Shown here piece after piece: positions 1,263 to 49,541 of a stretch of DNA of 64,000 nucleotides. The notes under the pieces were generated by a model. It worked only from the letters and a program-made list of their open reading frames with translations, had not been told where the DNA came from and ran no database searches. Every line of letters starts with the position of its first letter. The first letter of the stretch is position 1. Both the position numbers and the translations under genes were made by a program. Source of the DNA: a virus (Duplodnaviria; Caudoviricetes); IMG/VR virus record IMGVR_UViG_2706795801_000001, positions 1 through 64,000 of that record; one strand, 5' to 3'.

Positions 1263-1604
1263 TTACAAGCATTTATTATCCTGAGCATTATGATACTTTT
1301 CTAGCGTAATAGCTAACGGGATACTATCCTCAGAACCACCGCTAATCAAACCCCAGTTAGAATCTTCAGTCACAAGGTTGGAGTCAATCACTGTAGAATA
1401 CATCCCCAAACTACGTTGAAATTTTAAGGCTCCTAGACAGGGTTTAGTATTATCACTATGACAAGCCCAAGTTTTACCATGAGATTGTCGCATATGTACA
1501 ATCTCTAGTGGTGTTGGTAAGCAACCATAATTCTGTATTTGTGCGGACTCGTCTGTGAATGAGAAAGGACAACCACCTGTAGTACTGCATTGTTTTGTAC
1601 ACAT
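1263..1604 (-). CDS. Cys-rich hypothetical phage protein
   Basis: 113 aa ORF with AGGAG RBS and CPF, YGCLP, WACH and KPC motifs. Confidence 0.7.
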   Translation of the reverse strand: MCTKQCSTTGGCPFSFTDESAQIQNYGCLPTPLEIVHMRQSHGKTWACHSDNTKPCLGALKFQRSLGMYSTVIDSNLVTEDSNWGLISGGSEDSIPLAITLEKYHNAQDNKCL

Positions 1605-14996: not shown

Positions 14997-17509
14997 TTAT
15001 AAAGTGCAACCACCACCATCACAACCTACATCTACTACTTCCTCAACCTTTACTGATGTAGTAGAACCTGAATTAGTTTTACTGTTCACATAATACCTAG
15101 TTTTCATCCCCAGCATTGTCATATACATCCAGTTTTTAAGTAATTCAACACCCGTTATATCCCTTTTTGTGAAGTCTAAATACTCATCTGCTGATATAGA
15201 TTGGTCTGTTGTAGCTTGAATACAAGCGTACACTTCAATCATATCCTTAGCTGGAATATCATAGGCTAGCTCATAATATTGCTCATGTGTGTCAGCATTT
15301 GGTGCCAAGAACCTAGTCTTCTTTTTCCCGTTAGTCTTCACCACTTTAATACTACGGGCAGGCAGTATGCTATTGGTGCCATTGGTTGCAATCGATGAAC
15401 TTTCATTTGGCATATAATTGGTTGTTACACTAAATCTCACACCATACAAGAGAACATCTTTACGTAAATCTTCCCAGTTCTGAACCAGTCCTTGTTTGAC
15501 TACTTTAAACACGTTAGGGTTCATAGTATCTATAGGTAACCAACCATCTTTCCATTTAGTTTTGTACATCCAGTCACATTGCCCACGTTCTTTAGCTAAC
15601 CTGACAGAGGCTTTAATCATACTGAATGCATGTAACTCCGCTAACCTATGAATGTATTGTTTACCCTCTAACGAAGAGTATTTTAATTTCTTCTCAGCCA
15701 TATGTCCAGCTAAATCTGTAATACCCACTCCGATATTACGTCTAGCTTGAGCTGAATACTTCAGTGCTGGAAATGGATAATCCATTATATCTATCACATT
15801 GTCTATACTTAAGGCAGCGTAATATGCAACATCTTCCCATTCACTCTCTGAAACCCTACGTGCAACGATAGCTGACAAGCTACATAAACCAATCTCAGGA
15901 ATACTCCCATCTTTATTGACTGGTTGTGTTTCATTTAGTTGGTATACATTATCGAAACCTACAGTAGGGAACGCTGTTTCCTGACCATTTTATCCTAATT
16001 TTCATTAGGTGCGGATCATATCATCTCCCGTTCGGGGAGTCGGACGCTTTTTCACCCAGTGACTAAACTGTGCTACTTCCTGTTATTAAGCTTATTCGCA
16101 TAAGCTCAGGTGATCTCTGAACCTTCCTACTCCGTAGGCTTGGCTGCTGATTGCCATCATCTTTACATGTTAAGGTTTCCAGCAATTCATCCAATTATTC
16201 GACTTGTATTCCTACAAGAAGCTGCATCAGTTTACAGATTAGAACTATAAATTTTATTTAAGTGTGGTGTATGCCTATTAAGCTCATCAGTACGGTGTAA
16301 GTAAATCTGACCACTCTCTTGTCCTTGAATCAAAGCTTCCATTATAACCTTTCGGGCACTAATATATGTCTTAGGTTTAATAGATTTTTCGTACTCGTGG
16401 TACAATGTATCGAACACTGATTGATCTGCTAAATACATAGCTTCATACAATTCTGGAGCGTTCTGATAACTGACTAGCATCCACTGTTCATCATTATAAA
16501 CTTTTTGTGCAAATAACTTATTACTACCAAAAGAGTAATGTATGCCATCAACCCTTACCTTTGCCGCAGTTTTCTTACTCTTCCATGTTAATATATCCAT
16601 AATCTCAGGGTCGAGGCAGTTAACGTGCATAGTAGCTGAACCCCCTCTACTATTCTGTAAGTTAGCAGCAACTGCACTTTCAGTCATTTTATAGTAAGGA
16701 CGTTTACCTTGGTGGATAGTAGTACCACCTCGTACACCATCCCCCTTACTGCGGGTCTTAAGGTGAGAACCAATACCTGCTGAAGCACAGGTTAGCATAT
16801 ATGCTATGTGGTCACCAGCCGATAACGAATCTACAGTATCAAAAGTTGTAAACGTAGCGCAACTGGCGTATGACCTACTGGGAGTTCTAAGGTTAGTCAT
16901 AAAAGGCGTCGGTGCACAAATCTTCTTATCACTTAAATAAGTGTAATATTTAATTACATCATCTAATCTTCTGTGTTTTGGCATACCCTTCATATTTGCC
17001 ATAGCCATCCCCATGTACATGAATTGGGGTGACTCTAGTGCAATATCTTTTACTCTATTTCGGATAATATATTTGTCATTGATCTGTTTAATCTCTGGGT
17101 AAGAAGATTTCAAATCTTTAGAATGGTCTATTACCTCCTCAAGCTTATTAAATTCTTCTTCTGAGTATCCTAAAGATTCCCAGTACCCTAATGCTACCAT
17201 AGTATCATGGTGGTGTTTCAAGGTTGGAATCTTTTTGAAACCACCAAAAGCTTCTTTATAGATGATACCTGCTAACACCCTACCTGCTAACATGAAGTGC
17301 TTCTCATCAAATTCTTCGACACATGCATCAATTATAGCTTTATCAATATCTCGTGTGGTGCAATTATTACTTAGTAACTTTAATGCTTTGAATGAAATGT
17401 CACTCCAATTCACTTTTCTTGCTGCAGCCCATCTCATCTTCTTATTGAACTTTTCTGCGTCAAAAGGTACAGGTGTCCCATCACTCTTAATTACTGTGGT
17501 AATACTCAA
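14997..17509 (-). CDS. nrdA: Class Ia ribonucleotide reductase alpha subunit, two exons (17509-16234 and 15985-14997; 754 aa spliced)
   Basis: ATP cone, PTP, ASC; NLCQE restored on splicing; C-terminal CDGGGCTL. Confidence 0.93.
15986..16233 (-). mobile_element. ORF-less group I intron (248 nt) in nrdA
   Basis: 5' splice after U with P1 CTGT/GCAG, terminal G; P AATTGCTGGAAA, Q AATCAGCAG, R GTTCAGAGATCA, S ATGATATGATCC; removal gives AAT CTG T|GT CAG GAA. Confidence 0.92.
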
Positions 17510-41378: not shown

Positions 41379-41633
41379 ATGAAACATCAACAATACATTG
41401 CATGTAAACGTGATGGTACTTTTGAATTTAGAAATGGTGAGCCTGTATTAAAACAAGAAGGTGATATTGCAATATTTAATTGTGAAGATAGTTTGGATTT
41501 ATCACAAATTAGTATGTTATCCGATTACTTTTATAACAACCCATTTAAAACGGGTACGTTTTCTAATCCAGCAGTTTCGTTAGAAGAATCTAGAATTCGG
41601 ACGAAAGATAAAATTAACAAAATAAAAGTTTGA
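41379..41633 (+). CDS. Hypothetical protein
   Basis: 84 aa ORF. Confidence 0.6.
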   Translation: MKHQQYIACKRDGTFEFRNGEPVLKQEGDIAIFNCEDSLDLSQISMLSDYFYNNPFKTGTFSNPAVSLEESRIRTKDKINKIKV

Positions 41634-41658
41634 CACACTTAGATGTTCAAGGTATTAT
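41630..41658 (+). promoter_or_regulatory. Sigma70 promoter of the RNA operon
   Basis: TTGACA-17-TATTAT. Confidence 0.8.
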
Positions 41659-41891
41659 GTACTTATAGAAACAAACGGGAGTTAAACGAAGATGTTCGTG
41701 GTTGCCGAGTCATGATTGCACTGGAGACACCTTTAACAATGTGATAATCGGGGCTAGGTTGCGGTGCGTTGGGCCAATCTATGGACGCCATCGTAAGCTG
41801 TTATTTCATTCGATAATAAGGATGGTGATAATATCTCGCAGCATGAAGCGATAGACATGCAAGCAAAGTTAACGCTATGCGCCAAATGCGT

Positions 41892-42048
41892 TTAAATATT
41901 ATTTTTATGCTAACTTTGGTTTAACGGTATAACGAAGCCGCTGAAAAAGATAAGATAACCCAAAGGCCACGGGTCGTATTCTTTAGTAGGTTAGAGGCTT
42001 AGGCGTCAAGTTCGACTCTTGGCAGGTTAGCATAAAAATAATATTTAA
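41892..42048 (+). ncRNA. tRNA-like RNA with expanded anticodon arm and long closing stem
   Basis: D arm GTTTAACGGTATAAC; T arm TCAAG-TTCGACT-CTTGG; stem AAGCC/GGCTT around a ~55 nt insert; 23-bp perfect terminal inverted repeat. Confidence 0.7.
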
Positions 42049-42124
42049 GCGTAATTAGCTCAGATGGTAGAGCGCTATCCTTCCAAGTTAGTGGTCATCG
42101 GTTCGAATCCGATATTACGCTCCA
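42049..42124 (+). tRNA. tRNA-Gly(TCC)
   Basis: Full cloverleaf GCGTAAT...CT-TCC-AA...TTCGAAT...ATTACGC-T-CCA. Confidence 0.95.
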
Positions 42125-42191
42125 AATGTCCAGTTGCAGGATTCTGGCACACGGTAATAACAACCGTATAATCAACACCTGCTTTAATTAA

Positions 42192-42268
42192 ATCTCGTTA
42201 GCTCAGTTGGATAGAGCAACAGCCTTCTAAGCTGTGGGTCGAAAGTTCGAATCTTTCACGGGATACCA
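42192..42268 (+). tRNA. tRNA-Arg(TCT)
   Basis: Full cloverleaf ATCTCGT...CT-TCT-AA...TTCGAAT...ACGGGAT-A-CCA. Confidence 0.95.
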
Positions 42269-42286
42269 ACTACTACACGTTAGTAC

Positions 42287-42315
42287 TAGACAACACCATT
42301 GAGATATAGTATAGT
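42287..42315 (+). promoter_or_regulatory. Internal sigma70 promoter
   Basis: TAGACA-17-TATAGT. Confidence 0.6.
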
Positions 42316-42319
42316 TTGT

Positions 42320-43204
42320 GAGAAGGTTGTTTTGTCTTAGGGACCTATGATTGTAAGACCCAAGTGATACCTGCGTACAGGATGACAATCCGAATGACTG
42401 ACGTAAACAGTCTATATTTTAAAGTGTTTGGTAAGTTGATAGTGCGGCTCAATTTTAAATGGTATGAGGTGGCAGCATATCAGTCAAACACTTTAAAATG
42501 TAATTACATTGAAGTTATTATCATAGCTTCAATCAATTGTTACATTAAAAGGAGGATAAGCCACCTCCTTTCTGAGATACCATAAGAAATTGCGACTATG
42601 GTTAGAAGTTTAAATGGCAAACAATGTTGGTTGGCGCAGATTACGTCAGTTGCGGCAAAAGGCTTCGTTTACTGGAGTCGTTTAAAAGGTGGGCGAATAC
42701 AACACCTAACCAACAACACTTCTGATGTGTCTAAACTCAAGACGTATAGTAAATAAAAAGCTCTGCAAACCAGTAACGGAACTGGGAGAAGAAAGAAACA
42801 AAACGGTACGGAGTTATGTGGTTCTCCAGCAATACTATACACACTCCTCTGAAGAGTTTAATCTCAAGACAATACTCCTGCCCCGTCCTCGTAAGAGTTG
42901 GAGTTCTTTCCTGTAACAAGGTTGTAGCCAGAGTGCACATAAAAGTTATAATTCGGATTTAAGGTTGTTAGTCATCCTTAAGTAAATTATTGTAAAACTA
43001 ACAAATTCTACTGTATACTTGCCAATGGTTTAAGGTAGTCTTATAGCGGAAACGCACTTCATTGGCGCGATAATGTTTGTTAGTATTTATATACATCCCT
43101 CATTAACATGAGTTCTAGTTGTAATTACACAAGGCAGACTGCTAACGTCCCACATACAAAAGAGAGTACCACTCAAGTGTGGGTATTTGGTTGTTAGCCA
43201 GTCC
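42320..43204 (+). ncRNA. Series of small stem-enclosed structured RNA modules
   Basis: Closing stems at 42416-42499, 42625-42715, 42744-42840, 42997-43084 and 43137-43203; no credible ORFs. Confidence 0.55.
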
Positions 43205-43970
43205 GTGACTGGGTGATAAAACGACCGCTGGTATTGTAATTTAAGTTGTGGGTAACGTGATACCTTATGACCACACCCATGTTACAATGATGGTAATGTC
43301 GTTCATGAAAGTCATATTCCCTACCGAACCCAGATACTGGTTCAACACCTTGCCATTAATATATGGTTTCTGTGCAACGCAGACTAAGTAGGTTAATTTC
43401 GGGTCTGTTGTACAAGGTAACGCATATGCGTTAAATAGAAAGTTCCAATGGTTACGACCTTGGTAACGGCAAAGTCCTTTCCTATGCACCAATCAACGAT
43501 GTCATAGTCAGAGGCAAACACTAGGACATAACCCTGCCTAGTATAAAACGGTTTTGGGTGTAATAATATGTAAGCGACCACATGACTTTATCGTGGGGAC
43601 GGCTGGTATTCTGGTAAGATGATCCAAGACTCCATTATAATGGTAAACTTAAAGAACGCAAATGTGATGCTTTAGGCTAAAGCGTGGTGAGTGGGAGTAA
43701 CATCCAATTTAAGCAATGAGCCTTCAGGTAGCTCCTGAAATGTCCACGGATTCACATATATAGCTTGCACATGACCACTGATTCAAGCCAGTGCATAAGC
43801 AACTCCTGTCATTCGTGGCACTCGGTTGGGAGTATAATCTGGACTGGGAGACTAATAAAACCTTGTATTGTTCAAGGTCAGAAGTAAGACACTGTGAATG
43901 TCTAGGTAGACGTACTGACACATTGAGTCCCACCAAGTATTGGGTATCTACTCATACAGATTAACACCCT
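43205..43970 (+). ncRNA. Large ornate ncRNA candidate (ROOL/GOLLD size class)
   Basis: About 760 nt with no credible ORF; many hairpins and long-range helix AAAGTCAT(43308)/ATGACTTT(43582); downstream of tRNAs; ends at a terminator. Confidence 0.55.
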
Positions 43971-43997
43971 TTCAGAAATGACTGGGTGTTTTCTTTT
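43962..43997 (+). terminator. Rho-independent terminator closing the RNA operon
   Basis: AACACCC...GGGTGTT followed by TTCTTTT. Confidence 0.75.
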
Positions 43998-44073
43998 ACC
44001 TGAAATTTGATCAGGGTTATCAGTACATGATAATATGATCTTATGAAACACACTATTAACAAGGAATAACAAA

Positions 44074-44265
44074 TTGCAATGTAGTTGCGGGAATACAATA
44101 CACAGACCGTCCTATACCTCTAAATCTAAATATGATTATATTTGTAATGAATGTAAAGGTTACGAAGTAGAAGACTATGATATACCTCCATCGGGGGAAG
44201 ATTTACTAAATATTAATTTAGAAAACTATAATAGATATGAATTAAGTGGTGATGGAAATGACTAA
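44074..44265 (+). CDS. Small zinc-finger protein
   Basis: CSCG...CNEC. Confidence 0.6.
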   Translation: MQCSCGNTIHRPSYTSKSKYDYICNECKGYEVEDYDIPPSGEDLLNINLENYNRYELSGDGND

Positions 44266-44611
44266 TAAGAATAAAGGTGGTAGACCTACATCAAGTCAAG
44301 TAGCTGAAAGAGAATGGGGTGCGCTGATTACAGACATGAAAGCTATGTCCCCTAAACTTATGAAGAAAGCTATGAAGAAGTACTCCGACATACTGGACTC
44401 TGAGAAGGCATCTGAATCTGCAACGCTACGAGCCTGCTCTGGAGCCTTCGATATAGTTAAATATTTGAATGACCTAGAAAAACGTGTGGCTGATATGGAT
44501 GCTGAAGAAGAAGCTACTGCAGAAGGTTTATTAGCTGCAGTGGTTGCTGAAGAAAAGAAGCCTATGATTAGTCTAGTGGCATTCGAACCACCAGAAAAGA
44601 AAGTGATGTAG
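44246..44611 (+). CDS. Hypothetical protein, possible terminase small subunit
   Basis: N-terminal KGGRPT followed by helical region; upstream of terL. Confidence 0.4.
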   Translation: MVMEMTNKNKGGRPTSSQVAEREWGALITDMKAMSPKLMKKAMKKYSDILDSEKASESATLRACSGAFDIVKYLNDLEKRVADMDAEEEATAEGLLAAVVAEEKKPMISLVAFEPPEKKVM

Positions 44612-44659
44612 GTTATATTAAGTTTGACTGTATGTTCATGTTACTGTTATAATTACGTA

Positions 44660-44825
44660 TAGGTTGTGTGGCGGGGTTAAGTTCCTCCTCCTTACTTCAT
44701 CTGGCTACACTTCCTATATCCCTCCTAAAATGAGAGTAGTATATAACAGCTACCAGATATCTACAACCACACTTCCTCCTTCCCCCGCCTCATCAAATAC
44801 GTATGAGTGCGGGGTTTTTCTTTTT
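44660..44825 (+). ncRNA. Stand-alone C-rich small RNA
   Basis: TTGACT-18-TATAAT promoter with extended TG; intrinsic terminator 44783-44825; several TTCCT/CCTCCT motifs. Confidence 0.6.
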
Positions 44826-44871
44826 ATAAAATTTAAAATTAGTGTTGACACGATAGGTGTGAGGTAATATA

Positions 44872-45270
44872 GTGAGTGTATTATTAATTGAAGAAGGGAG
44901 GTTTATAATGTTTACTAAATTAAAATTGTGGTGGAGACTTGAGACTGGTAAGGATTTGCTTGAACAATTACAGAAAGGGTATGAGGAGCAGGTTATTATT
45001 ATCAGCGCCCTAGAGGATCAACTGGCCTCTTTAACTAGAACAGTTAAACTGCACACTAGGGTAGATGCAGATGTGAGTAGTACTAAGTATGATAAGTCTG
45101 TTATCATATGTTCTGGTAGATGGAAGAACCATTCGTACTCCGAGGTGTTTGAAGTCGAGGGTGGATTACTAAAAGATACTGTGGATATTCTTCGTGATAA
45201 GGAGAAAACGCACTCACGAGGTTATTACGATCTACCTTATGGTACTAATAGATTCTTTGGAGGTTTATAA
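44872..45270 (+). CDS. Hypothetical protein
   Basis: Probable start MFTKL with GGAGG RBS. Confidence 0.7.
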   Translation: MSVLLIEEGRFIMFTKLKLWWRLETGKDLLEQLQKGYEEQVIIISALEDQLASLTRTVKLHTRVDADVSSTKYDKSVIICSGRWKNHSYSEVFEVEGGLLKDTVDILRDKEKTHSRGYYDLPYGTNRFFGGL

Positions 45271-45272
45271 TT

Positions 45273-45530
45273 ATGGTTATCGCAATAGGTTTTGTATGTT
45301 TAATTGGTTGGGTATTAGGTGCATGGGTTCCTTGGTGGGTCGTAGCGGCTATGTGGTGTGGCTATGGTATCAATTTGTGTCTAGGTAAACAAAGTGGCTT
45401 AGATGGCGTTATAGACTTCCACTGTGGTATTATACTAATCACTGCAACAGTGTCAGGGTTCATCTTAGGTGATGTGACATTTGCAATGATTTGGGACTGG
45501 TTGGTGATGGTATTTACTGGAGGGATGTGA
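45273..45530 (+). CDS. Small membrane protein
   Basis: Hydrophobic; GGAGG RBS. Confidence 0.7.
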   Translation: MVIAIGFVCLIGWVLGAWVPWWVVAAMWCGYGINLCLGKQSGLDGVIDFHCGIILITATVSGFILGDVTFAMIWDWLVMVFTGGM

Positions 45531-46951: not shown

Positions 46952-49541
46952 ATGAGTGAAAAAACTTTATTTTCTCCAGCATCCCCTAAACAGGCGTTGA
47001 TGTTAAAGAGGGCAAGTGATACACAGATAGTTGTGATCGGTGGCGCTGCAGGTTCTGGAAAGTCCCATATTCTTAACCACTTACCCCTTCTTGTAGTTGA
47101 CGACCCTAGGACAAACTGTATTATGTACCGTAGGACTAACCCTCAACTAGAAGGTGGTTTGTGGCCTAACGGACGTAAGATTTGGGCAGAAATGCCAGAT
47201 TGGGTACCAAAAGAATATAAACCCAAGAATATCAGGGAGAAGGTTAAAGAAGTTATCCTTTATAACGGAGCTAAGATTAAATACAATCAGGCAGAAAATA
47301 CCTCTAGAGCTAAGGATGACGCCCAAGGACAGGAATTTACCTTAGTTTGTATTGACGAAGCAACACAACATGACTGGGAATTTATAGAATACTTAATGTC
47401 TCGTTTACGGTCGCCATCTAAGCATTTCTCAAGAATGGTGATGAGTTGTAACCCCGACCCAGATCATAAACTAAGGCAAATTATTGACTGGTACTTGGAT
47501 GAAGAAGGATACCCCGATCCAGATAAGGATGGAGTACAGAGGTATTTTATTACCCTTGATGGGGAGTTCCAATGGGGGAATACCAAAGCTGAATTAGGGG
47601 AGAGGTTCGATATACCCGAAAAAGACTGGGAAAGTAAAATATTATCCTTCGCGTTTGTCAGCGGGACTATTTACGATAACCCCCCCATGATGGTTTTGAA
47701 TCCACAGTACCTAGCTTTTCTTGAAGGCTTAAATGATATTGATAAAGCTCAACTGTTACACGGTTATCTAGTAGCCGCTTCATTCGTAATGGAATGTCGA
47801 TAATTTTGTTAATTGCTGGGAAATCTTTACACCTATTAGTTGCTATAGAATAAAGTATATAATTTGGCTATAGGTTTAGATAATCAGCACCTAAGGTATT
47901 ACCACCCAGAATAAAGTAAGGAAAATTATGAAAAATCTTAAAAGTTTAAATGCATCAAATTACTGTTTAACCCCTTGTGGTAAACTCTATTCCTTAAGAG
48001 TCAATAGTTTCATGGATGGTTGGGTAGTTGGTGGTTACCTGAAATACTCAATAACCTTCGATGATAGTTCTCATAAAGAAATGTTTGCTCACAGACTTGT
48101 GGCAATTGCTTATCTGGGAGGAGAAGATTCAAATAGGATTTTTGTGAACCATATAGACGGTAACACACTAAATAACCATAAAGATAATCTAGAGTGGGTA
48201 ACTCCGTCTGAGAACAACTTTCACGCTTATGAGACAAACCTTTCTGTTGGAAAAAAACATCACGTAGAAGGTCTAGAGTATCTTAAAGGTATATACAATG
48301 AAAGTTGTGATTATAAGAACCTCACAGAAGAGGATGTGCATCAAATATGTAAGCTCCTTGTTGCAGGCTATAGGGACGTGGATATAAGTCGTATGACTAA
48401 CTTACCCAGAAGGACAATAAACCACATACGTCATAAGGATCTTACCTTGTTTCCAAAGATTGTAGAACAATACTCGTTCTCTTTCACAAAAGAAGATCGG
48501 ATGTCACCAGAACAGGTAGTTCAAATATGTGAGATGTTACAGTGTGGGTGGAAAGTTATGGAATTATCTAGACATTTAGGGTTAAACAGGAAAAAAGTAG
48601 GTAATATTAAGAGTAGGAAGACCTTCCTTGATATATCTAAAGCATATAATTGGTAATACAAAGATCAACGACTAACCCTGACGGGTGTACGCTGTAAGCT
48701 TAAAGCAGTGGAAATACAAAACACCTAAGTAAATTTATATTTAGGTGAAGATATAGTCTAGACTGTATGGTGACATATAGAAGTTCATAAGAGAACTGAG
48801 TGTGATTTGCGAACTCACTTGAATAATACGAACTGGAATGCACGTGCTAAGGGGGCCAACTATCTACTTTCTGGATGGTTTCAAGAGGTTGATAGGATAC
48901 CTTCTGGTGGTGTAATGGCAAGAGGTTATGATTTAGCTGCCACTGAAAGGAGTCAAGTCAATAAACACCCTGATGCCACTACATCATGTAAAATGTTGAA
49001 ACATGAGGGGTATTACTACATTATTGGTAATTATCACGAAAGTTTTTATGATGATGTTGAAGATGTCTACGGGAGGGTATGTAAAAGGGTTGGTGATAGA
49101 GATAATGTAATGTTGTCTCAGGCGAAACTAGATGGAGATGAATGTACCATTGTTCTTCCCGTAGATCCAGCTTCTGCTGGTAAACAGGTGTATTTAGAGA
49201 TGTCTAAGTTTTTTACTGGTAATGGGTTTAGAGTTAAGAAAGACCCAGTAGCTGGTAATAAATCAAAACTTACTAGGTTCTTACCTTTTGCCACTGCAGC
49301 AGAGAATGGTTTAGTTAAGATAGTAAGGAACACTTTTGACGACAAAACTTATTTATGGATAATGAAAGAATTGGAAGCCTTTAACGGGGAAAGGTCAACT
49401 TCTACAAAAAAAGATGATTTTCCAGACTGTATTTCTACAGTTTTCAACTACTTATGTACCGCAAGGTCTAACAAAGCCTTCACCTTACCTACAATTGATT
49501 CTCCTTCTCTCCTATCTCACCATAAGTCGAGAATTAAATAA
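46952..49541 (+). CDS. terL: Terminase large subunit, two exons (46952-47764 and 48831-49541; 507 aa spliced)
   Basis: GGAAGSGKS, IDEA, SCNP; LLHG|NW restored on splicing; YDLA and KDDFPD nuclease motifs. Confidence 0.92.
47765..48830 (+). mobile_element. Group I intron (1066 nt) with HNH homing endonuclease
   Basis: P1 CGGT/GCCG, terminal G; P AATTGCTGGGAA, Q AATCAGCA, R GATCAACGACTA, S AAGATATAGTCT. Confidence 0.92.
47928..48656 (+). CDS. Intron-encoded HNH homing endonuclease with two C-terminal HTH repeats
   Basis: AHRLVA..VNHIDG.TLNN..NLEWVT.SEN..HA; repeated (L/M).xExVxQIC helices. Confidence 0.9.
   Translation: MKNLKSLNASNYCLTPCGKLYSLRVNSFMDGWVVGGYLKYSITFDDSSHKEMFAHRLVAIAYLGGEDSNRIFVNHIDGNTLNNHKDNLEWVTPSENNFHAYETNLSVGKKHHVEGLEYLKGIYNESCDYKNLTEEDVHQICKLLVAGYRDVDISRMTNLPRRTINHIRHKDLTLFPKIVEQYSFSFTKEDRMSPEQVVQICEMLQCGWKVMELSRHLGLNRKKVGNIKSRKTFLDISKAYNW

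What the first reader, a model, noticed from the sequence alone, without database searches (positions are those of the whole stretch)
44624..44825. Independently transcribed sRNA loaded with anti-Shine-Dalgarno / anti-GGA motifs
Seen: an extended -10 promoter, a ~165 nt body and a strong terminator. The body has TTCCTCCTCCTTA (44682), CACTTCCT (44708), TCCCTCCT (44719) and CACTTCCTCCTTCC (44770); CCTCCTTA equals the 16S rRNA 3' end. Such C-rich runs are rare on the sense strand elsewhere. Inference: a multivalent sRNA that masks AGGAGG ribosome-binding sites (early phage or host shut-off), or that pairs with the GGA loops of CsrB/C-type RNAs to release CsrA.
Basis: partly seen in the sequence, partly recalled or inferred. 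Interest (0 to 1): 0.72.

Follow-up and report, generated by a model that had tools for sequence, protein, structure and literature searches.

The report
Phage small RNA with ribosome-tail-mimic loops
This Shewanella sea-ice phage carries a self-contained gene for a roughly 165-base non-coding RNA whose open loops copy the end of ribosomal RNA that docks onto messenger RNAs. The same design recurs in the cholera phage ICP1 and many marine Vibrio phages, so it probably blocks ribosome-binding sites, though no target has been shown.

Summary
Window 44624-44825 (+) holds a near-consensus sigma-70 promoter with an extended -10, an ORF-poor body of about 165 nt and a strong intrinsic terminator. 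Its density of CCUCC/CUCCU-type motifs is the highest on either strand of the 133.8-kb genome (15 per 170 nt against a mean of 0.7).

It belongs to a family that Rfam does not hold. Hairpins with unrelated stems hold out the same pyrimidine loop (UCCUCCUCCUU, UUCCUCCUUA), followed by a terminator. I found members in Shewanella phages 1/4 and 1/40, V. cholerae phage ICP1, the Vibrio phage groups eugene/helene, qdvp001/VnaP/PWH3a-P1/VPMCC14, RYC, 1.121.O, 424E50-1 and 11895-B1, and Pseudoalteromonas phage PH357. In several of these it forms the 3' tail of a short tRNA operon.

The ICP1 copy is colinear with the window's RNA. It lies in the ~300-bp gp135-gp136 gap that Barth et al. 2020 reported as a non-coding transcript at 12-16 min after infection.

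The most likely mechanism (about 0.5, inferred) is occlusion of Shine-Dalgarno sites, as shown for the alphaproteobacterial ar14/NfeR1 'cuckoo' sRNAs. The window RNA is not a member of that family by covariance model.

The CsrB idea has no support. 'Early' timing is doubtful.

This scan has noted similar anti-SD-loop RNAs on other DNA (19 notes), but not this family.

The parts
44624..44629 (+). -35 hexamer TTGACT
   Evidence: Promoter scan, 11/12 match, 18-nt spacer. Near-consensus promoters are enriched in this genome, 22 against 6.8 in shuffles.
44645..44653 (+). Extended -10, TGT + TATAAT. The same TGnTATAAT/TATAGT form heads the homologous units of ICP1, eugene, 1.187.O, 424E50-1 and RYC; the qdvp001 group has the weaker TGTTAATAT/TGTTATTAT.
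44659..44717 (+). Hairpin 1: about 20 bp in four stacked helices, starting at or within 3 nt of the predicted transcription start (inferred as 44659-44662)
   Evidence: MFE and centroid folds. Closure of the loop by its arms: -16.0 kcal/mol against -9.8 for shuffled arms.
44683..44693 (+). 11-nt apical loop UCCUCCUCCUU (two overlapping CCUCC registers); with A44694 it reads CCUCCUUA like the 16S 3' end
   Evidence: The 10-mer TCCTCCTCCT occurs once in this genome (0.1 expected). It also lies in the apical loop of the homologous hairpins of ICP1, eugene and RYC, whose arms are unrelated.
44708..44715 (+). CACUUCCU motif, predicted to be paired as the 3' arm of hairpin 1
44719..44726 (+). UCCCUCCU motif, mostly unpaired. 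The preceding AUAUCCCUC is shared with ICP1.
44736..44753 (+). Small A/U-rich hairpin (GUAGU/GCUAC)
44770..44783 (+). CACUUCCUCCUUCC, single-stranded, directly 5' of the terminator. It corresponds to the UUCCCUCCUU hairpin loop of ICP1.
44783..44825 (+). Intrinsic terminator: G+C-rich hairpin 44783-44814, then UUUUUCUUUUU. There is no U-run on the opposite strand, so it works on + only.
   Evidence: Identity with phage 1/40 ends a few bases after it.

Best explanation
Window ~44659-44822 (+) is a real gene for a non-coding RNA of about 165 nt. The host sigma-70 RNA polymerase transcribes it from its own extended -10 promoter, with possible read-through from the upstream gene, and an intrinsic terminator ends it. 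It is the Shewanella-phage member of a family found in ICP1-related marine myoviruses. The conserved working part of that family is a pyrimidine loop (UCCUCCUCCUU or UUCCUCCUUA) that copies the anti-Shine-Dalgarno 3' tail of 16S rRNA and is held out on hairpins of freely varying sequence. Most likely the loops, together with the single-stranded CU tracts at 44719-44726 and 44770-44783, base-pair with (U)AAGGAGG(A) ribosome-binding sites of messenger RNAs. This would keep 30S subunits off those sites and possibly mark the mRNAs for decay. The effect would be a class-wide damping of strong-SD messages from phage or host, probably in the later part of infection. Shown: the anatomy, the genome-wide outlier status, the family with a conserved loop and unrelated stems, the absence of coding potential, and published transcription of the ICP1 homologue. 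Inferred: transcription in this phage, base pairing as the mode of action, the identity of the targets, and the timing.
For: Promoter, terminator and fold. Motif density is the genome maximum. Family members carry the same loop on different stems, always on the strand of the local promoter and terminator: eugene and 1.187.O, PH357, RYC, qdvp001 and VnaP, VPMCC14 with stems kept despite about 30% sequence divergence, 1.121.O and 424E50-1, 11895-B1 and ICP1. The 10-mer TCCTCCTCCT occurs once each in Sh1/4, eugene and ICP1 and twice in RYC (one copy in its unit, one elsewhere), against about 0.1 expected per genome, and each unit copy is apical. Arms close the loops better than shuffled arms, with z from -2 to -8 in 8 lineages. 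CU motifs are more often unpaired than the rest of each RNA, 0.57-0.99 against 0.33-0.55. The Sh1/4 and ICP1 units align colinearly from promoter to terminator, z = 7.2 with 0 of 200 shuffles as good, while their flanking proteins are unrelated. The ICP1 unit lies in the 333-bp ORF135-ORF136 gap. The paper's gene numbers match the ORF numbers of that record, as shown by the 1011-bp gap between ORF139 and ORF140. That gap is reported as a transcript without coding capacity at 12-16 min (PMC7567579). The unit persists in phages without adjacent tRNAs (the window, ICP1, the qdvp001 group), so it is not just a tRNA-processing tail. No ORF is conserved and none has an SD. Precedent: the three loop motifs CCUCCUCCC of NfeR1 redundantly silence mRNAs by RBS occlusion (PMC10746234).
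Against: No transcript, target or phenotype is known for this phage, and no RNA run holds the sequence. An RNA complementary to every strong SD would also hit the phage's own messages; 141 of 221 called genes have GGAG, GAGG or GGAGG, and no selectivity rule emerged. There is no extended (11 nt or more) complement anywhere in the phage genome. Duplex predictions against all start regions were no better than with reversed segments. Pyrimidine tracts in a G-poor RNA are unpaired almost by default, so the accessibility figures alone are weak. One of the four motifs is predicted to be paired. Comparison with phage 1/40 says nothing about selection, because background divergence is only 0.5%. Some lineages (1.121.O, 424E50-1, PH357) have weaker loop closure.
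Confidence: 0.5

Rival explanations
1. Decoy of the 16S rRNA 3' tail. The loops do not pair with mRNAs but soak up a protein that recognises the anti-SD tail. Candidates are ribosomal protein bS21, or a host defence or toxin nuclease that cuts the 16S tail or UCCUU-type sites. The RNA would thus reprogramme or protect ribosomes during infection.
For: The conserved motif extends past CCUCC to CCUCCUUA, the exact 16S end, in the window, RYC, the qdvp001 group, 1.121.O and 11895-B1. OLE RNA carries an ASD mimic that binds bS21 (PMC12054373). MazF-type toxins with UCCUU-like specificity for the anti-SD are known (my own knowledge, not checked here).
Against: In OLE the ASD mimic is bound as a duplex with an SD-like strand, whereas here the motif is an open loop. 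Bases 5' of CCUCC are UU, not the CA of 16S. The flanking U residues fit the A-rich context of ribosome sites better than they fit mimicry. No candidate binding protein is linked to the locus; the neighbours are PHROG families of unknown function.
Confidence: 0.17
2. Purely structural 3' module. The hairpins and terminator only end and stabilise a transcript (a tRNA operon or the upstream mRNA) or guide its processing, and the CU-rich loops have no trans-acting role.
For: In RYC, 1.121.O, 424E50-1, 11895-B1 and the eugene group the module is the 3' tail of a tRNA unit, with 0, 1 or 2 tRNAs inserted upstream. In the metagenomic relatives L016/L018 no convincing promoter of its own was seen. In the window the upstream gene ends 12 nt before the -35 with no terminator of its own.
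Against: Termination and stability need stems, not a particular loop. Yet the loop sequence is what stays constant while the stems change. The unit exists with its own promoter and no tRNA in the window, ICP1 and the qdvp001 group. Multiple CU motifs outside the terminator have no role in this model.
Confidence: 0.12
3. Antagonist of CsrB/CsrC-type RNAs. The UCC repeats pair with the GGA loops of the host's CsrA-sponging RNAs and free CsrA.
For: (UCC)3 is complementary to GGA repeats, and the hosts (Shewanella, Vibrio, Pseudoalteromonas) are gammaproteobacteria, which as a group have Csr/Rsm systems (my own knowledge).
Against: The family-wide core is CUCCUU(A) or CCUCC, the complement of AAGGAG(G). 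That needs GGAGG or GGAG, not the isolated GGA in A(N)GGA(U) contexts typical of CsrA sites. Nothing beyond UCC is conserved that would fit such sites. No host sequence could be examined.
Confidence: 0.04
4. Not an RNA gene of the plus strand. It is instead a small protein gene (the 67-aa ORF 44664-44867), or a minus-strand CsrB-like RNA or a set of minus-strand ribosome sites.
For: An open frame of 67 codons exists. On the minus strand the motifs read AGGAGG.
Against: The ORF starts with TTG 3-5 nt from the predicted start, has no SD and runs through the terminator. No unit in 11 lineages has a conserved ORF or one with an SD, and two have no ORF of 20 codons at all. The promoter and the U-tailed terminator are on the plus strand only, in every lineage. 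No start codon follows the minus-strand AGGAGG at a usable distance. All neighbouring genes are on the plus strand.
Confidence: 0.03

Closest known systems
ICP1 non-coding transcript of about 300 nt between gp135 and gp136 (Barth et al. 2020, mSystems, PMC7567579)
   Same: Colinear homologue: an extended -10 promoter, a long 5' hairpin with the loop UUCCUCCUCCU (sharing the 14-mer AAGUUCCUCCUCCU), AUAUCCCUC, a second CCUCCUU motif, and a terminator. Both lie a few small genes downstream of the phage's large non-coding RNA region.
   Different: The paper describes ICP1's only as an unannotated transcript at 12-16 min. It does not comment on sequence, structure or function. The stem sequences and flanking genes are unrelated. 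ICP1's second motif sits in a hairpin loop, whereas the window's is single-stranded.
ar14 / 'cuckoo' sRNAs of alphaproteobacteria (NfeR1, CcsR1-4; Rfam RF02344 ar14)
   Same: The same design: several hairpins with divergent stems, each exposing an ultraconserved anti-SD motif (CCUCCUCCC there, UCCUCCUCCUU or UUCCUCCUUA here). The NfeR1 motifs silence mRNAs by occluding ribosome sites (PMC10746234).
   Different: No covariance-model match. This one is encoded by lytic phages of gammaproteobacteria, not on an alphaproteobacterial chromosome. The loop ends in UU(A) like the 16S tail, not in CCC. It is often fused to tRNA operons. Targets are unknown.
Staphylococcal and Bacillus C-rich-loop sRNAs (RNAIII hairpins, RsaE/RoxS, SprX)
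   Same: C-rich apical loops that pair with SD regions. This is from my own knowledge, with SprX in PMC4005690 listed.
   Different: Those have UCCC motifs, are host- or island-encoded, and show no sequence relation. No Rfam match.
Phage T4 RegB endoribonuclease (my own knowledge)
   Same: A phage function aimed at the SD sequence (GGAG) as a class, to retire a set of messages during the infection programme.
   Different: RegB is a protein nuclease. Here an RNA would act by pairing. No RegB test was made.
3'ETS-leuZ of E. coli and T4 rnaC/rnaD (stable RNAs at the 3' end of tRNA operons; my own knowledge, with T4 sequence)
   Same: In RYC, 1.121.O, 424E50-1, 11895-B1 and the eugene group, the module is the 3' trailer of a tRNA transcription unit.
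   Different: The window's copy has its own promoter and no tRNA. T4 rnaC and rnaD are not CU-rich. 3'ETS-leuZ sponges sRNAs rather than SDs.
OLE RNA P6 anti-SD mimic bound by bS21 (PMC12054373)
   Same: A non-ribosomal RNA carrying an exact copy of the 16S anti-SD (CCUCCU).
   Different: In OLE the copy is paired with an SD-like strand and serves protein binding within a 600-nt RNP of Bacillota. Here the copy is in open loops of a small phage RNA.

Membership tests
ICP1-group phage anti-SD-loop sRNA (family proposed here; ICP1 gp135-gp136 transcript as reference) | Colinear sequence similarity to the ICP1 unit beyond the loop motif | tested here: met
   Local alignment runs from the 5' end to the terminator. 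Score 58 against 24.7 +/- 4.6 for shuffles, z = 7.2, 0 of 200 as good. Caveat: shared low-complexity CU tracts inflate this score.
ICP1-group phage anti-SD-loop sRNA (family proposed here; ICP1 gp135-gp136 transcript as reference) | Hairpin with a 9-13-nt pyrimidine loop containing CCUCC or CUCCUU, followed by an intrinsic terminator on the same strand | tested here: met
   The same holds in 10 further lineages.
ICP1-group phage anti-SD-loop sRNA (family proposed here; ICP1 gp135-gp136 transcript as reference) | Observed as a transcript | not testable with these tools
   Published for ICP1 only (PMC7567579). No RNA run holds the window's sequence.
ar14 / cuckoo RNA (Rfam RF02344) | Match to the family covariance model at or above its gathering score (58.8 bits) | tested here: not met
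   No match at E <= 10 in the whole phage genome. No match to any Rfam family at E <= 10 over 42250-44900.
ar14 / cuckoo RNA (Rfam RF02344) | Hairpins with divergent stems exposing an ultraconserved CCUCCUCCC-type anti-SD motif | tested here: met
   The loop UCCUCCUCCUU contains CCUCCUCC and is conserved across lineages on unrelated stems. This is a likeness of design, not of descent.
ar14 / cuckoo RNA (Rfam RF02344) | Silences mRNAs by pairing of the motifs at ribosome-binding sites | not testable with these tools
   Shown for NfeR1. Only inferred here.
CsrB/RsmY-type CsrA sponge | Many GGA motifs in loops of the transcribed strand | tested here: not met
   The transcribed strand carries UCC, not GGA. 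The promoter and the U-tailed terminator are on + only.
tRNA-operon 3' trailer RNA (3'ETS type) | Lies directly 3' of a tRNA in the same transcription unit | tested here: not met
   The window's unit has its own promoter, and the nearest tRNA ends at 42268. The feature is met in relatives RYC, 1.121.O, 424E50-1, 11895-B1, K470, 184E37.3a and 1.193.O.
Bacterial intrinsic-terminator sRNA gene | Sigma-70 promoter, no translated ORF, G+C-rich hairpin followed by a U-run | tested here: met

The most novel reading that the evidence does not exclude
The RNA is a molecular decoy of the ribosome's own 16S 3' tail. Its loops would capture a factor that normally acts on that tail: bS21, or a host abortive-infection or toxin nuclease that disables ribosomes by cutting the anti-SD. 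The phage would then protect or re-tune the translation machinery with an RNA mimic, much as phage tRNAs replace cleaved host tRNAs.
Probability: 0.12. Interest if true: 0.85.

Novelty: new variant of a known kind. Interest (0 to 1): 0.6.

Why it matters
Lytic phages are known to retune translation with proteins such as T4 RegB and with their own tRNAs. A conserved phage RNA that copies the ribosome's mRNA-docking sequence would be an RNA-only way to act on ribosome-binding sites as a class. The family includes ICP1, the best-studied predator of Vibrio cholerae, where the RNA is already visible in published transcriptomes but has never been analysed. ICP1 has genetics, RNA-interactome data and a satellite (PLE) that itself uses an RBS-occluding sRNA. 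The hypothesis can therefore be tested at once. It also gives a function-bearing motif to part of the unexplained non-coding regions and tRNA-operon tails of marine Vibrio, Shewanella and Pseudoalteromonas myoviruses. Finally, it adds a gammaproteobacterial-phage case to the anti-SD-loop design known from alphaproteobacterial cuckoo RNAs.

Tried and rejected
- **RNA evidence.** No RNA holder was listed for window 44200-45300. Only three metagenome DNA runs appeared, with small shares.
- **Locus search with the upstream protein.** The 121-aa protein found only phage 1/40.
- **Pattern scans of IMG/VR.** The three-motif pattern gave only 1/40 plus antisense-of-coding chance hits. The promoter-plus-loop pattern found only 1/40 and ICP1 among 17 hits.
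- **Generic detector.** My detector (pyrimidine loop closed by a stem of 4 bp or more, non-coding, terminator within 230 nt) had as many hits in reversed or complemented control genomes as in real ones. It also missed known members because of the ORF mask. It is not usable as a statistic, but it led me to 11895-B1 and ICP1. A simpler CCTCC-in-loop count was equally unspecific.
- **Consensus folding.** RNAalifold on MAFFT alignments misaligned the non-homologous stems and could not give covariation counts. I used arm-shuffle tests instead.
- **Comparison with phage 1/40.** There were zero substitutions in the unit, but background divergence is only 0.5%, so this says nothing about selection.
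- **Target prediction.** Duplex energies against all 221 start regions were uninformative, because reversed CU segments scored as well. No complement of 11 nt or more exists in the genome. No GGAGGAGGA-type partner RNA exists in any of 10 genomes.
- **Other checks.** T4 rnaC and rnaD are not CU-rich. rV5 and FelixO1 showed no member by the 10-mer or the detector. The flanking proteins have no Pfam function and only PHROG families of unknown function. The ICP1 and Sh1/4 neighbours are not homologous.
- **Literature.** Searches found no described phage anti-SD or 16S-tail-mimic sRNA and no follow-up on the ICP1 gp135-gp136 transcript.
- **Rejected readings.** I rejected the 67-aa ORF and the minus-strand readings (see rivals).
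- **Not done.** I did not check the 16S 3' end or the CsrB genes of a Shewanella host genome.
Full report
**What the window is.** The window is the first 64 kb of a complete 133,824-bp phage record with direct terminal repeats. It is close to Shewanella sp. phage 1/40 from Baltic Sea ice; the 44200-44850 stretch is 98% identical. The finding lies in a plus-strand block of small genes of unknown function. That block sits 0.55 kb downstream of a 2.4-kb gene-poor stretch holding tRNA-Gly and tRNA-Arg, and 2.1 kb upstream of the large terminase gene.

**Checking the observation.**
- The promoter is TTGACT, an 18-nt spacer, then TGT-TATAAT (11 of 12, with the TG of an extended -10).
- Promoters this close to consensus are enriched in the genome: 22 against 6.8 +/- 2.4 in shuffles. 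Four of the eleven plus-strand ones lie between 39.8 and 44.9 kb.
- The predicted RNA runs from about 44659-44662 to the U-run ending at 44825.
- Its MFE fold is -47.9 kcal/mol, z = -3.8, and none of 200 dinucleotide shuffles folds as well.
- The fold has a 5' hairpin of about 20 bp (44659-44717) capped by the 11-nt loop UCCUCCUCCUU (44683-44693). A mostly open middle follows, containing UCCCUCCU. Then come a small A/U hairpin, the single-stranded tract CACUUCCUCCUUCC, and a G+C-rich terminator hairpin (44783-44814) with UUUUUCUUUUU.
- The second motif (CACUUCCU, 44708) forms part of the 3' arm of hairpin 1, so it is not exposed in this fold.
- The density of CCUCC-type pentamers is 15 per 170 nt, against a genome mean of about 0.7 (sd about 1.1). 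This is the maximum on either strand, and the next best is 9. The runners-up are antisense to minus-strand genes and their ribosome sites.

The observation therefore stands and is not chance.

**Coding and minus-strand readings.** The 67-codon frame starts with TTG a few bases after the predicted start. It has no SD and runs through the terminator. Across eleven lineages of the family described below, no ORF is conserved, none has an SD, and two units have no ORF of 20 codons at all. The terminator has a U-run only on the plus strand, and the promoter is on the plus strand, so a minus-strand GGA-rich (CsrB-like) RNA is excluded.

**Relatives.**
- Phage 1/40 has an identical unit. Identity collapses just after the terminator, which marks a module boundary. 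Background divergence between the two phages is only about 0.5%, so this comparison says nothing about selection.
- I found more distant relatives through the terminase, at 51-76% amino-acid identity. I then inspected the regions around their terminase genes, and for ten phages the whole genome.
- One recurring unit emerged, always on the strand of the local promoter and terminator. It has one to three hairpins whose apical loops are pyrimidine runs containing CCUCC or CUCCUU, often further single-stranded CU tracts, and then an intrinsic terminator.

Members and their loops:

| Phage or group | Loops and tracts |
|---|---|
| Vibrio phages eugene/helene, 1.187.O, K406, K470, 184E37.3a, 1.193.O | UCCUCCUCCUUU |
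| RYC | UUCCUCCUUAU and UCCUCCUCCUU |
| qdvp001, VnaP, P018-4, PWH3a-P1, VPMCC14 | single-stranded UCUCCUCC, plus loop UUCCCUCCUUA on top of the terminator stem |
| 1.121.O | CCUCUCCUU, UUCUCUCCUUU, UUCCUCCUUA |
| 424E50-1 | UUCUUCUCCUUUU, UCUUCCUCCUU |
| 11895-B1 | UCUCUCCUU, UUCCUCCUU |
| Pseudoalteromonas phage PH357 | five CU tracts |
| Metagenomic contigs L016/L018 | positional analogue only |
| V. cholerae phage ICP1 | UUCCUCCUCCU, UUCCCUCCUU |

None of these units matches any Rfam family.

**What is conserved.**
- The exact 10-mer TCCTCCTCCT is expected about 0.1 times per genome. It occurs once each in Sh1/4, eugene and ICP1, and twice in RYC, where one copy is in the sRNA unit. In all four units it is the apical loop of a long hairpin whose arms share no sequence.
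- When six lineages are aligned, the only invariant block is the loop core CCUCCUU.
- VPMCC14 and qdvp001 keep a long hairpin of 16-18 bp under the loop despite about 30% sequence divergence.
- With the loop held open, the natural arms close it better than shuffled arms: ICP1 z = -5.3, qdvp001 -7.9, VPMCC14 -4.5, RYC -4.6 and -2.5, 11895-B1 -2.5, eugene -2.3, Sh1/4 -2.1. The effect is weaker in 1.121.O and 424E50-1.
- In every unit the CU motifs have a higher unpaired probability than the rest of the RNA. This alone is weak evidence for a G-poor RNA.

Selection therefore acts on displaying this loop, which points to an RNA-level, sequence-specific recognition function.

**Link to tRNAs.** In RYC, 1.121.O, 424E50-1 and 11895-B1 the module directly follows tRNA genes. 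In the eugene group, zero, one or two different tRNAs are inserted between a conserved leader hairpin and the CU-rich tail. In the window, ICP1 and the qdvp001 group the unit stands alone behind its own promoter. That promoter is of the extended -10 type in the window and ICP1; the qdvp001 group has a weaker TGTTAATAT/TGTTATTAT form. ICP1 is stated to have no tRNAs at all (PMC7567579). The module is therefore separable from tRNA processing.

**The ICP1 homologue and expression.**
- The ICP1 unit lies on the minus strand in the 333-bp gap between ORF136 and ORF135 of NC_015157.
- It aligns colinearly with the window's RNA from the 5' end to the terminator: the shared 14-mer AAGUUCCUCCUCCU, ACUUCAU, AUAUCCCUC, a second CCUCCUU motif and the U-tail. 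The score gives z = 7.2, and 0 of 200 shuffles do as well.
- Its promoter closely resembles that of Vibrio phage 1.187.O.
- The flanking proteins of ICP1 and Sh1/4 show no similarity, so the RNA is better conserved than its neighbours.
- In both phages the unit lies a few small genes downstream of the large non-coding region. In ICP1 that region is the 1011-bp ORF139-ORF140 gap that holds the abundant lncRNA.
- Barth et al. [quoted passage not shown] The paper's gp139/gp140 gap of about 1 kb matches the ORF139/ORF140 gap of the record. Its gene numbers therefore correspond to the ORF numbers, and the 300-bp region is this unit.
- This is published evidence that the homologue is expressed. I found no later analysis of it. 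For the Shewanella phage itself no RNA data exist.

**Mechanism.** The shared loop core, UUCCUCCUU(A), is the complement of (U)AAGGAGGAA, a strong Shine-Dalgarno site in its usual A-rich setting. It also equals the last eight bases of 16S rRNA (established knowledge for E. coli, not verified here on a host genome).

The closest experimentally understood design is the ar14 or 'cuckoo' family of alphaproteobacteria. It has three hairpins with divergent stems, each exposing the ultraconserved CCUCCUCCC. In NfeR1 these motifs act redundantly to silence ntrB and ABC-transporter mRNAs by occluding the ribosome-binding site (PMC10746234). The window's RNA does not match the ar14 covariance model, so the likeness is one of design, not membership.

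I therefore take SD occlusion as the most likely action, at about 0.5. T4 RegB, which cuts GGAG in SD sites, is a protein precedent for a phage acting on the SD as a class (my own knowledge).

What remains unexplained is selectivity:
- 141 of 221 called phage genes carry GGAG, GAGG or GGAGG.
- The strongest sites are concentrated in the minus-strand block 0-39 kb (22 of 64 genes with GGAGG).
- There is no longer complement anywhere in the phage.
- Simple duplex predictions do not discriminate.

On timing, the promoter looks like a host-type, presumably early one. Yet the ICP1 homologue is reported late.

**Rivals.**
- A decoy of the 16S tail for a protein is attractive. The candidates are bS21, as with the OLE RNA mimic (PMC12054373), or a ribosome-directed nuclease. 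The attraction is that the motif extends to the exact 16S end, and these phages invest in the translation apparatus. But the OLE mimic is bound as a duplex, the 5' context differs from 16S, and no protein is linked to the locus. I give it 0.17 as a class, and 0.12 for the specific protective-decoy reading.
- A purely structural 3' module (0.12) does not explain why the loop, rather than the stem, is the constant part.
- The CsrB/C reading (0.04) has nothing specific in its favour.
- Coding or minus-strand readings (0.03) are contradicted.

**Novelty and verdict.** The RNA gene is very probably real (about 0.85). It belongs to a family not in Rfam and not analysed in the literature I could search, and the ICP1 member is a published but uncharacterised transcript. 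The design principle, anti-SD loops on variable hairpins, is known from cuckoo RNAs and from staphylococcal C-rich-loop sRNAs. This scan has also noted comparable anti-SD-loop RNAs in other phages and bacteria (19 notes; not tested here). I therefore class it as a new variant of a known kind. Interest is moderate to high, because ICP1 offers an immediate experimental system.

Noticed in passing
window 41630-44070: A gene-poor stretch of about 2.4 kb behind a near-consensus promoter (41630). It holds tRNA-Gly (42049-42124), tRNA-Arg (42192-42268) and long structured-looking non-coding sequence. Between phages 1/4 and 1/40, 42269-44073 is about 29% divergent while its flanks are under 1% divergent. 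It occupies the position of ICP1's lncRNA gap (ORF139-ORF140) relative to the sRNA.
   Followed up: partly
window 42548-42575: Hairpin AAAGGAGG-ATAAGCCA-CCTCCTTT: an SD-like strand paired with an anti-SD-like strand inside the non-coding region. It is the only GGAGG I noticed by eye in that stretch.
   Followed up: no
window 15993-16243 (-): Group I intron (Rfam RF00028, 63.9 bits). Related phages also have group I introns in their split terminase genes (L018 4465-4679; L023 8720-8953 and 9315-9546).
   Followed up: no
window 46952-47803; L001 6622-8655: The large terminase frame in the window stops after 283 aa. In phage 1/40 the terminase is annotated in three pieces, with an HNH homing endonuclease between the first and second. 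This suggests an interrupted (intron or homing element) terminase gene.
   Followed up: no
L019 ~5355; L022 ~7449; L070 ~5423; L100 (minus strand) ~3163; L064 588-686: A tiny ORF beginning M-(A/I)-V-(L/F)-(I/V)-N-E directly follows the sRNA terminator in eugene, RYC, 424E50-1, 11895-B1 and K406, where it is annotated as a 99-nt CDS. It is a conserved micro-gene always coupled to the RNA unit in the Vibrio phages. No obvious counterpart exists after the window's unit.
   Followed up: no
L065 377-452; L066 391-466; L067 378-528; L019 5100-5180: In the eugene group, the slot between a conserved leader hairpin and the CU-rich tail holds no tRNA (eugene, 1.187.O, K406), one tRNA (K470, identical to the 1.193.O Thr gene; 184E37.3a, Asn) or two (1.193.O, Thr + Trp). 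It behaves as a swappable tRNA cassette site.
   Followed up: partly
whole genome G000, 1-39000 (-): Genes of the minus-strand block 0-39 kb have markedly stronger SD sites than the rest: 22 of 64 have GGAGG, and the mean duplex with the anti-SD is -8.9 kcal/mol against -5.4 to -7.3 elsewhere (my own crude gene calls). If the sRNA masks SDs, this block would be the most exposed.
   Followed up: partly
L071 ~1280-1300 (-), T4 rnaD: T4 species 2 RNA (rnaD) contains a hairpin GAUG-CCCUCUUA-CAUC. Its loop is one base away from CCUCCUUA. This may be chance.
   Followed up: no
ICP1 genome 95990 (+), 86079 (-), 81762 (-): A few ICP1 ribosome sites carry doubled SDs (GAGGAGGAG or GGAGGAGGA). They would be the best-matching targets of the (UCC)3 loop.
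   Followed up: no
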